Below, in pieces: positions 13,217 to 13,823 of a stretch of DNA of 64,000 bases (position 1 is the stretch's first letter; each line of letters starts with the position of its first letter). The DNA is from a virus. The stretch covers positions 32,001-96,000 of the IMG/VR virus record IMGVR_UViG_3300020733_000010. One strand, 5' to 3'. Under the pieces are notes generated by a model. It had not been told where the DNA came from and searched no databases. It was given only the letters and a program-made list of their open reading frames with translations. The position numbers and the translations under genes are program-made.

Positions 13217-13431
13217 TTCTTTGGATCGTCAAATGAAGGAGCAATCTTTTCTGCTTCTTCGTGTGTCATAAAGCGTGAAGGAGGTTGATCTGCCCACTTG
13301 AAGAACTGTACTGGTTTCCAGTATTTGCTCAACAAGTTATTGATAACAATAATGCCTGCAATGATAACAATTGTACCTAGACTAAACAAGATACTACCTG
13401 CTAACCATGCTGCTGCTATGTCCATATCCAT
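13213..13431 (-). CDS. small single-pass membrane protein
   Basis: Hydrophobic AAWLAGSILFSLGTIVIIAGIIVI. Confidence 0.6.
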   Translation of the reverse strand: MDMDIAAAWLAGSILFSLGTIVIIAGIIVINNLLSKYWKPVQFFKWADQPPSRFMTHEEAEKIAPSFDDPKK

Positions 13432-13823
13432 TATTTTTTACCTTTAAGTTTTTTCAAGTTTTCTAAGAGACTACTGCTCTTAGATTTTTTAGTGTCTTGG
13501 TGCGTCGGATGGGATTCGAACCCACTACCTACTGGTTTAGAATCAGTCGCTCCGGCCTTTGGAACTCCCGACGCATTATAATCTCTCAACAAAGATTTAA
13601 TGTCTTTGTGTTTTACAATTATAACATTGTGTATATCATTTTCAAACTTAATGGGCAAATCTAATGTGATAGTGATTCTAGGTCCTTCTAGATCACTAAC
13701 CACACCTTCATTGCCCACAGAGCCAATGAAAGGAATCTTATTCCAATAACCAAACACTCGTTCACCAAACAGATAGCTTGGTTTATAACGATTCTTTTCA
13801 AAATACTCTGCTAAATTTGACAT
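13431..13823 (-). CDS. hypothetical protein whose 3' part runs through a tRNA gene
   Basis: Residues ASGVPKAGATDSKPVGSGFESHPTH are the translated tRNA sequence. Confidence 0.55.
   Translation of the reverse strand: MSNLAEYFEKNRYKPSYLFGERVFGYWNKIPFIGSVGNEGVVSDLEGPRITITLDLPIKFENDIHNVIIVKHKDIKSLLRDYNASGVPKAGATDSKPVGSGFESHPTHQDTKKSKSSSLLENLKKLKGKK
13498..13574 (-). tRNA. amber suppressor tRNA, anticodon CUA
   Basis: 77-nt cloverleaf GCGTCGG GA GTTC CAAAGGCCG GAGC G ACTGA TT-CTA-AA CCAGT AGGTA GTGGG TTCGAAT CCCAT CCGACGC A CCA. It has a 7-bp acceptor stem, T loop, encoded CCA and A73. Non-canonical G8 and A31-C39. Confidence 0.85.

What the first reader, a model, noticed from the sequence alone, without database searches (positions are those of the whole stretch)
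13431..13823. Suppressor tRNA(CUA) nested in-sense inside an open reading frame
Seen: a complete 77-nt cloverleaf with encoded CCA sits inside ORF 13431..13823, with no stop codon in that frame. A hairpin TCTAAGAG-N7-CTCTTAGA follows it. It has A73, a short variable loop, G8 and an A31-C39 mismatch. Known: CUA suppressors with A73 are often charged by LysRS, and GlnRS also reads U35. Inference: excising the tRNA would cut the polycistronic mRNA, coupling suppressor supply to destruction or processing of this message. The inserted amino acid is more likely Lys or Gln than Tyr, Leu or Ser.
Basis: partly seen in the sequence, partly recalled or inferred. Interest (0 to 1): 0.7.

Follow-up and report, generated by a model that had tools for sequence, protein, structure and literature searches.

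The report
Suppressor tRNA gene inside phage ORF
A large freshwater phage carries a working-looking amber-suppressor tRNA whose gene is also read, in frame, as the linker of a small phage protein, and the tRNA's evident job is to read one conserved UAG codon near the start of a gene just downstream.

Summary
A 77-nt tRNA(CUA) with encoded CCA lies at 13498-13574 (-), inside the stop-free ORF 13431-13823 (-), and is followed by the reported hairpin.

The window is part of a 178-kb phage contig that uses the standard code (93% coding; TAG ends 4 of 173 genes).

The tRNA belongs to a phage tRNA family of 36 aligned members. 12 of 18 stem pairs show compensatory changes, and U33-CUA-A37 and the CCA end are invariant.

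Gene 12365-12937 (-) begins SD-ATG-3 codons-TAG-ATT. All 46 related contigs with a visible start keep this TAG. 45 of the 46 carry a family tRNA(CUA); one was not tested.

The nesting is not a chance open frame:
- The same in-frame arrangement occurs in at least four separate clades of the small protein.
- The 13-codon tail beyond the tRNA is under strong protein-level selection (pN 0.03-0.14 against pS 0.5-1.3; three Leu positions use seven codons).
- No start codon separates the tRNA from the tail.

So the tRNA sequence is very probably also translated, as a disordered linker. The inserted amino acid and the partition between processing and translation remain untested. No published precedent was found.

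The parts
13498..13574 (-). Amber-suppressor tRNA (anticodon CUA, 77 nt, encoded CCA, A73, G8, A31-C39 mismatch). It is also read as codons 84-109 of the ORF.
   Evidence: ARAGORN; Rfam RF00005 at 46.1 bits; fold. The family alignment has compensatory changes in 12 of 18 pairs. The family model R1 scores the 99%-identical copy in L001 (one base differs) at 74.2 bits. U at -1 occurs in 31 of 35 family members.
13431..13823 (-). 130-aa ORF in three parts: a Tudor/SH3-like N-domain (res 1-83, 13575-13823), the tRNA-encoded linker (res 84-109) and a basic amphipathic tail (res 110-130, 13434-13496). The stop TAA at 13431-13433 overlaps the next gene's ATG (TAATG).
   Evidence: ORF list. 533 homolog clusters, most of 79-83 aa without tRNA or tail. 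AF2 gives the N-domain pLDDT 75-89, the linker 48-58 with no secondary structure, and a helix at 116-127. Tail selection.
13462..13484 (-). 8-bp hairpin 13 nt after the CCA, lying inside the tail's codons.
   Evidence: It is conserved in 5 lineage-A sequences (97.5% of cells paired); one pair shows 5 different standard pair types. Analogous hairpins occur in the other nested clades.
13618..13645 (-). Sigma70-like promoter inside the ORF (TTGAAA, 16 nt, TG-n-TATAAT), about 44 nt upstream of the tRNA's 5' end.
   Evidence: It is the best consensus match (11 of 12, with extended -10) in 11300-17400. The TATAAT is kept in all nested lineages that retain the V-I-I motif, but also in about 60% of tRNA-less homologs.
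12365..12937 (-). Amber-gated gene: SD TAAGGAG (12944-12950), ATG at 12935-12937, three codons, in-frame TAG at 12923-12925, then 185 highly conserved codons. Function unknown.
   Evidence: The TAG is conserved in all 46 homolog loci with a visible start. It co-occurs with tRNA(CUA). It is the only convincing such configuration in the contig and the only one with a strong SD and a recognisable conserved product in a complete relative.
13213..13431 (-). 72-aa membrane-protein gene whose ATG overlaps the stop of the nested ORF. It is syntenic in related loci.
   Evidence: L101 has a homolog directly after the tRNA.
16969..17301 (-). Phage-encoded two-piece (permuted) tmRNA in the same co-oriented accessory block.
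   Evidence: Rfam RF01850 at 106 bits and RF04321 at 97 bits. It is a frequent neighbour of the module in related phages whether or not the tRNA is nested.

Best explanation
The element is a functional phage amber-suppressor tRNA gene that sits in frame inside a translated gene. The tRNA reads a single conserved UAG placed 1-9 codons after the start of a downstream phage gene (codon 5 here, TAG at 12923-12925). That gene therefore yields only a tiny peptide unless enough charged suppressor is present, which makes it a cheap translational gate. In this lineage the tRNA gene lies between the Tudor-like domain and the basic helical tail of a small phage protein. Its 77 nt are in the one frame without stops, so ribosomes on long transcripts read it as a 26-residue disordered linker, complete the tail, and terminate on the next gene's start codon. 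Mature tRNA would come from transcripts not covered by ribosomes. The likely source is the sigma70-like promoter inside the ORF, with RNase P cutting after the conserved U(-1) and ordinary 3' trimming to the encoded CCA. If a long transcript is cut instead, the upstream piece becomes a non-stop message ending exactly at the family's usual C-terminus, which makes it a substrate for ribosome rescue. Shown here: the tRNA family and its covariation, the conserved TAG and its co-occurrence with the tRNA, the recurrence of the nesting, and purifying selection on the tail. Inferred: tRNA maturation, charging, suppression, use of the promoter, and the partition between translation and processing.
For: The tRNA is real. 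In the family alignment of 36 sequences, 12 of 18 pairs show compensatory changes, and G1-C72/C2-G71/G3-C70, U33-CUA-A37 and CCA are invariant. U(-1) occurs in 31 of 35 members. Target: SD-ATG-(1-9 codons)-TAG followed by an Ile codon (ATT, ATA or ATC) occurs in all 46 loci with a visible start. 35 of these have tRNA(CUA) less than 4 kb upstream on the same strand. 10 of the other 11 were tested with model R1, and all carry a 70-92-bit family tRNA with a CUA loop elsewhere on the contig. TAG is the rarest stop in this contig (4 of 173). The post-TAG peptide is near-invariant. Only one convincing such gate exists in the contig, and only one with a strong SD and a recognisable product in a 364-kb complete relative. 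Nesting: frame-0 nested ORFs occur in clades A, B, C and E. The N-domain tree places these in at least four separately supported clusters. The tail's last 13 codons have pS 0.5-1.3 against pN 0.03-0.14. Across 13 distinct sequences three Leu positions use seven different codons, six Leu codons plus ATT/ATA. There is no ATG or GTG between the tRNA and the tail in lineage A. The stop overlaps or abuts the next start. The peptide read from the tRNA segment is not conserved while the stems covary. AF2 predicts the linker to be disordered and the tail helical. An internal promoter is present.
Against: There are no expression, processing, charging or proteomic data. Nested tRNAs score lower on the general tRNA model (34-56 bits) than free-standing relatives (54-62 bits), and this copy has G8 and an A31-C39 mismatch. 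The TATAAT is also present in many tRNA-less homologs, so it may reflect Ile codon usage. tRNA-less long forms with a similar tail exist, so the tail does not need the tRNA. The frame-1 nested case (L101) has a close relative with a stop just before the tRNA, which shows that some read-through frames are labile accidents. A 99%-complete relative has the tRNA but no detectable homolog of the amber gene. This contig is only about 51% complete, so other targets could exist.
Confidence: 0.68

Rival explanations
1. The open frame is accidental. The real protein ends functionally at the tRNA because the message is cut by RNase P, giving a non-stop mRNA handled by tmRNA or Arf-type rescue. The 47-codon extension is never made or is irrelevant.
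For: Most homologs stop exactly where the tRNA begins. L079 has TAA 1 nt before its tRNA. L141 and L142 have a stop where L101 reads through. A phage tmRNA lies in the same block.
Against: The tail beyond the tRNA is under strong purifying selection in that frame across divergent clades. There is no alternative start codon. The ORF stop is coupled to the next gene's start. Only about 13% of frames are open in free-standing family tRNAs. The tmRNA neighbourhood is not specific to nested loci.
Confidence: 0.15
2. The UAG of the downstream gene is a true stop of a 2-10-codon mini-ORF, and the main ORF is made by re-initiation at the adjacent AUU. The suppressor tRNA would then serve another purpose, such as reading through host or phage TAG stops, or counter-defence.
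For: The TAG is directly followed by ATT in 44 of 46 loci, and AUU is a known rare start. The leader length varies. One near-complete relative has the tRNA without this gene.
Against: TAG is used in every case, although it is the rarest stop codon in these phages. Co-occurrence with a tRNA(CUA) holds on 45 of 46 contigs, the last being untested. The position after TAG varies among Ile synonyms (ATT, ATA, ATC) and is never ATG, GTG or TTG, as expected for an elongation codon.
Confidence: 0.12
3. The cloverleaf is a tRNA-like mRNA element or a pseudo-tRNA, a relic of an insertion, with no decoding role.
For: It scores lower than free-standing relatives and has non-canonical G8 and A31-C39.
Against: Compensatory changes maintain all four stems within the nested lineages. 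CCA, the T-loop, U33 and A37 are invariant, U(-1) is conserved, and the same family occurs free-standing.
Confidence: 0.04
4. The phage uses an alternative genetic code in which TAG is a sense codon genome-wide.
For: Suppressor tRNA(CUA) and TAG depletion are the hallmarks that Borges et al. describe for relatives of recoded phages.
Against: Coding density is 93% under table 11 and TAG still ends genes. Only one convincing gene with an internal TAG was found in the contig, and one in the complete relative.
Confidence: 0.02

Closest known systems
Suppressor tRNAs of stop-codon-recoded phages (crAss-like, Lak and jumbo phages; Borges et al. preprint 10.1101/2021.08.26.457843; PMC7886860; PMC13037316)
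   Same: A phage-encoded tRNA(CUA), a TAG-depleted low-GC phage genome infecting a standard-code host, and the idea that suppression regulates particular genes.
   Different: Here the genome keeps the standard code. As far as the held sequence shows, a single gene carries one fixed UAG right after its start. The tRNA gene itself is part of a coding sequence.
Mitochondrial 'tRNA punctuation' (ORFs abutting tRNAs without complete stop codons; from general knowledge)
   Same: A coding region runs straight into the 5' end of a tRNA with no stop, so tRNA excision defines the mRNA end.
   Different: Here the frame continues through the tRNA to a conserved, selected tail and a real stop. No polyadenylation-made stop is possible, since the message would end ...UAUAAU.
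tRNA-mRNA co-transcripts in bacteria and phage T4 (tufB operon, T4 tRNA cluster; general knowledge)
   Same: tRNAs are released by RNase P and RNase E from transcripts that also carry ORFs.
   Different: In those cases the tRNAs lie between ORFs, not inside one in frame.
arfA non-stop mRNA controlled by trans-translation (PMC10107115 abstract; PMC3985003)
   Same: Programmed cleavage yields a non-stop message whose product depends on tmRNA activity. Suppressor tRNAs are known to increase the tmRNA load (Ueda et al. 2002, cited in PMC3985003).
   Different: Cleavage here would be by tRNA processing. Whether the truncated product matters is unknown.
CarD/CdnL/UvrD-type Tudor-like RNA-polymerase-interacting domains
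   Same: The N-domain model aligns best to T. thermophilus CarD residues 3-61 (Z 7.0, rmsd 2.1 over 56 residues), M. tuberculosis CarD (Z 6.4) and the UvrD C-terminal domain (Z 6.1).
   Different: Z values under 8 are in the range of common small beta-barrels. There is no sequence similarity, so this is only a lead to function.

Membership tests
Canonical elongator tRNA (Rfam RF00005) | Cloverleaf scoring above the curated threshold | tested here: met
   46.1 bits against a gathering score of 29; ARAGORN call.
Canonical elongator tRNA (Rfam RF00005) | Stems maintained by compensatory substitutions among relatives | tested here: met
   12 of 18 pairs have double changes in 36 sequences.
Canonical elongator tRNA (Rfam RF00005) | Mature, aminoacylated species in vivo | not testable with these tools
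   No RNA or charging data are available.
tRNA-Pyl (ARAGORN's label) | 3-nt variable loop, 6-bp anticodon stem, one base between the acceptor and D stems, and a very small D-loop | tested here: not met
   The sequence and fold show a 5-nt variable loop, two bases (G8, A9) after the acceptor stem, a 4-5-bp anticodon stem and a 7-nt D-loop. The label only reflects the CUA anticodon.
Alternative-code (TAG-recoded) phage | Low coding density under table 11 and many genes with in-frame TAG | tested here: not met
   93% coding under table 11. One convincing internal-TAG gene in the contig and one in a complete relative.
Alternative-code (TAG-recoded) phage | Phage-encoded tRNA(CUA) and depletion of TAG as a stop | tested here: met
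   (TAG ends 4 of 173 genes).
Amber suppressor with a dedicated target | A conserved in-frame UAG in a gene that co-occurs with the tRNA | tested here: met
   46 of 46 loci keep the TAG; 45 of 46 contigs hold a family tRNA(CUA).
Amber suppressor with a dedicated target | A residue inserted at the UAG in the protein | not testable with these tools
   The database 'Q' is an artefact of TAG=Q gene calling.
Dual-coding (overlapping) gene | Both readings are under selection | tested here: met
   RNA reading: covariation. Protein reading: the frame is kept open in at least four clades and the downstream tail is under purifying selection. The linker peptide itself is not conserved.
CarD-like RNAP-interacting Tudor domain | Fold match clearly above background, with conserved RNAP-contact residues | tested here: inconclusive
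   Best Z is 7.0, within the range of unrelated small barrels. Contact residues were not examined.

The most novel reading that the evidence does not exclude
This would be a previously undescribed gene architecture and control circuit. One stretch of DNA is both a functional tRNA and translated protein-coding sequence. Competition between ribosomes and RNase P on the same transcript, together with an internal promoter and the phage's own tmRNA, would set the supply of a suppressor whose only purpose is to open a UAG gate at the start of one conserved phage gene. This would be a widespread module in large freshwater phages, since the gated gene has more than 1,400 homolog clusters.
Probability: 0.35. 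Interest if true: 0.9.

Novelty: new variant of a known kind. Interest (0 to 1): 0.8.

Why it matters
If confirmed, this gives three things. First, it would be a natural case of a tRNA gene embedded in frame in a translated ORF, where RNA-level and protein-level selection act on adjoining and overlapping sequence. That bears on how overlapping information evolves and on gene calling in phage genomes. Second, it would be a minimal, single-codon form of phage stop-codon recoding in standard-code phages. This may represent either an evolutionary precursor of full recoding or a self-contained translational switch. Third, it would provide a family of compact natural amber suppressors and a matched natural 'amber-gated' gene, whose amino-acid identity and regulation can be tested directly.

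Tried and rejected
- Phage GenBank collection (blastn and tblastn of the locus and ORF): no match.
- Exact-pattern scan for the tRNA's 3' half in viral contigs: no hit, because the nearest copy differs by one base.
- Pfam, PHROGs and PADLOC on the small protein, the amber gene and neighbouring genes: nothing significant.
- PDB sequence profile for the amber protein: nothing.
- AF2 model of the amber protein (pLDDT 69): no Foldseek match, and only generic ferredoxin-like similarity (Z 5.7) for residues 92-156.
- ESM Atlas: uninformative.
- Origin or identity of the tRNA by similarity to the phage's 28 other tRNAs: best identity only 0.66, so no call was made.
- Phage-encoded GlnRS/GluRS-type enzymes, LysRS/AspRS-type enzymes, or a release factor in this half-genome: none.
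- A tRNA relic in the tRNA-less long forms (L007, L037, L076): only 10-25-nt chance-level matches and no hit to the family model. Rejected as evidence.
- tmRNA as a specific partner of the nested arrangement: rejected, because tmRNA neighbours occur with free-standing tRNAs too.
- Genome-wide TAG recoding: rejected.
- Literature searches for a tRNA inside an ORF, or for a single-gene amber gate in phages: nothing found. The library is not exhaustive.

Full report
**What is there**

The window is bases 32001-96000 of a single 178,144-bp virus contig. It has 37.9% GC and CheckV estimates it to be about 51% complete. It carries 28 tRNAs clustered at one end and one lone tRNA. A two-piece beta-type tmRNA lies at window 16969-17301 (-).

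The lone tRNA lies at 13498-13574 (-) with anticodon CUA. It scores 46.1 bits on Rfam's tRNA model against a threshold of 29. It has an encoded CCA, A73, G8, a 5-nt variable loop and an A31-C39 mismatch.

The ORF 13431-13823 (-), 130 aa, runs through the tRNA. The tRNA begins at codon 84, in its only stop-free frame. The hairpin at 13462-13484 is present.

**Genetic code**

Under table 11 a crude gene set covers 93% of the contig. Stop codons are TAA 108, TGA 61 and TAG 4. No long ORF continues past a TAG in a meaningful way. This is a standard-code, TAG-depleted phage, not a recoded one.

**The tRNA is one of a family**

Related viral contigs hold many tRNA(CUA) genes. An alignment of 36 sequences shows several conserved features:
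- G1-C72, C2-G71, G3-C70, U33-C34-U35-A36-A37, the T-loop and CCA are invariant.
- A73 occurs in 33 of 36 sequences.
- 12 of 18 predicted pairs show compensatory double changes.

U is at position -1 in 31 of 35 members, nested or not.

Free-standing members score 54-62 bits on Rfam's model, while nested ones score 34-56. The tRNA is not close to any of the phage's other 28 tRNAs. No aminoacyl-tRNA synthetase or release factor was found on the contig. The inserted amino acid cannot be inferred.

**What the suppressor is for**

An earlier scan note on this genome (e1-5770884) pointed to a gene with an early TAG. I tested that lead.

At 12365-12937 (-) the sequence reads as follows:
- Shine-Dalgarno TAAGGAG, then a 6-nt spacer;
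- ATG TCA CAA CAA;
- TAG at 12923-12925;
- ATT GAG and onward, followed by 185 codons.

The first 33 residues after the TAG are almost invariant among homologs.

In all 46 related loci whose start region is visible, the same design holds. An SD and ATG are followed by 1-9 leader codons, then TAG, then an Ile codon (ATT in 44, ATA in one, ATC in one).

Co-occurrence with the tRNA is close to complete:
- 35 loci have a tRNA(CUA) within 4 kb upstream on the same strand.
- 10 of the other 11 were tested with a covariance model of the family. Every one carries a 70-92-bit hit with a CUA anticodon loop elsewhere on the contig, well above the other tRNAs at 62 bits or less.
- One locus was not tested.

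Database proteins of this family (1,435 clusters) often show 'Q' at that position. That is a gene caller's TAG=Q translation, not a sense codon.

A scan for SD-ATG-short leader-TAG-long ORF gives two hits in this contig. Only this gene is convincing, because the other has an ATG three codons after the TAG, followed by a signal-peptide-like N-terminus. In a complete 364-kb relative the same scan gives 18 crude candidates. Only this gene combines a strong SD with a recognisable conserved product. That relative has exactly one tRNA(CUA), and TAG ends 29 of its 406 genes.

The most economical reading is a dedicated suppressor and amber-gate pair. The rival, a mini-ORF followed by re-initiation at AUU, explains neither the exclusive use of the rarest stop codon, nor the co-occurrence with the tRNA, nor the variation among Ile synonyms.

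The function of the gated protein is unknown. There is no Pfam, PHROG, PADLOC or PDB match. The model is of moderate quality and shows only a generic ferredoxin-like sub-domain.

**Is the ORF really translated through the tRNA?**

The small protein has 533 homolog clusters. Most are 78-84 aa and end a few residues after the motif KHKDIK, exactly where the tRNA begins here.

In several lineages there is no stop, and the tRNA follows in frame 0:
- clade A: the window, L002, L005, L148, L149;
- clade B: L006, L016;
- clade C: L015, L027, L084, L153;
- clade E: L122, L151, L152.

These use both 77-nt and 74-nt versions of the tRNA. An N-domain tree is short and only partly resolved, but it places these in at least four separately supported clusters interspersed with tRNA-less forms. 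In free-standing family tRNAs only about 10 of 78 frames are open.

Beyond the tRNA the frame continues to a conserved tail of the form [ST]-L-L-[EDN]-x-L-K-x-L-K. The evidence that this tail is translated is as follows:
- In pairwise comparisons of the last 13 codons, pS is 0.5-1.3 and pN is 0.03-0.14.
- Across 13 distinct sequences, the three Leu positions use CTC, CTG, CTA, CTT, TTA, TTG and ATT/ATA, and Ser switches between AGT and TCN.
- There is no ATG or GTG between the tRNA and the tail in lineage A.
- The ORF's stop overlaps or directly abuts the next gene's start: TAATG here, and adjacent or overlapping in L148, L149 and L153.

By contrast, the peptide read from the tRNA segment changes freely wherever the stems covary. 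For example, the D-arm region gives ...SGVPKAG... in one sequence and ...SEARMVR... in another.

AF2 gives a Tudor/SH3-like barrel for residues 1-78 (pLDDT 75-89). Residues 83-108 are unstructured (pLDDT 48-58), and residues 116-127 form a helix.

tRNA-less long forms with a related tail exist (S-[IV]-L-D followed by a basic end). The tail is therefore an older part of the protein, and the tRNA occupies its linker.

Not every read-through is meaningful. The frame-1 case (L101) has a close relative with a stop just before the tRNA.

**How tRNA and protein could both be made (inference)**

The best sigma70-like match in 11300-17400 lies inside the ORF: TTGAAA, 16 nt, TG-n-TATAAT at 13645-13618 (-), about 44 nt before the tRNA. 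Transcripts starting there carry no start codon for the small gene, so the tRNA could fold and be processed without interference from ribosomes.

The TATAAT coincides with the V-I-I codons. It is present in all nested lineages that retain that motif, but also in about 60% of tRNA-less homologs, so this evidence is weak.

Long transcripts from upstream (ahpC-ahpD-small gene) would be translated through the tRNA. If RNase P cuts them, the upstream product is a non-stop message ending at the family's normal C-terminus. Suppressor tRNAs in general raise the load on tmRNA (Ueda et al. 2002, as cited in PMC3985003).

A phage tmRNA lies in the same block. Its neighbourhood is common to this phage group whether or not the tRNA is nested, so no specific link is claimed.

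The hairpin 13 nt after the CCA is conserved in lineage A, with 97.5% of cells paired and one pair showing five standard pair types. Analogous hairpins occur in the other nested clades. It may mark a 3'-processing site or stabilise the downstream fragment. This is speculation.

**Comparison with what is known**

Phage suppressor tRNAs and TAG depletion are well described for phages with alternative codes. The differences here are threefold: the standard code is retained, one fixed UAG sits at the start of one conserved gene, and the tRNA gene lies inside a translated ORF.

Mitochondrial tRNA punctuation and bacterial tRNA-mRNA co-transcripts are the nearest analogies for the processing side. 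I found no report of an in-frame, translated tRNA gene, or of a single-gene amber gate in phages. The searched library is not exhaustive.

**Verdict**

- The finding is real, recurs in many phages, and is unusual.
- The scan had already noted both this stretch and the TAG gene on this same genome. I found no note of it on other DNA.

Noticed in passing
window 12365-12937 (-): A highly conserved phage gene of unknown function (1,435 homolog clusters) with an obligatory in-frame TAG 1-9 codons after its ATG. Gene callers either truncate it at an internal Met or translate TAG as Q.
   Followed up: yes
window 16969-17301 (-): A phage-encoded two-piece (permuted) beta-type tmRNA. Read from the Rfam alignment (not checked further), its tag ends in ALAA. 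Similar tmRNAs lie near the suppressor/amber module in many related contigs.
   Followed up: partly
window 13825-14888 (-): An AhpC-like peroxiredoxin and an AhpD/CMD-like gene lie directly upstream of the small gene. Related phages have TerC-CMD or rubrerythrin-rubredoxin in the same position, forming a slot for oxidative-stress auxiliary genes.
   Followed up: no
window 15427-16440 (-): A Gram-negative porin (Porin_4, E 1e-43) encoded by the phage. Together with the beta-type tmRNA, it hints at a betaproteobacterial host.
   Followed up: no
window 31774-48012 (-): A single 5,412-aa ORF, followed by ORFs of 1,120 and 1,178 aa. Not examined.
   Followed up: no
window 13575-13823 (-), residues 1-83: The small protein's N-domain models as a Tudor/SH3-like barrel. 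Its best structural neighbours are the RNA-polymerase-interacting domains of CarD and UvrD (Z 6-7). This is a lead that it may bind host RNA polymerase.
   Followed up: partly
L079 (record G013, 353 kb, 99% complete): This relative carries a family tRNA(CUA) immediately after the small gene, with a TAA 1 nt before the tRNA, but has no detectable homolog of the amber-gated gene. Its suppressor may have a different target.
   Followed up: partly
L011-L013, L018: In these phages the tRNA(CUA) sits directly upstream of the small gene (ending 8 nt before its ATG), and the amber-gated gene follows directly after it. The three elements therefore travel together in different orders.
   Followed up: partly
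tRNA family alignment A3: Position 8 is A or G instead of the near-universal U in about half of the family, including free-standing members. In this copy G8 comes with a C14-G21 pair that extends the D-stem to 5 bp.
   Followed up: no
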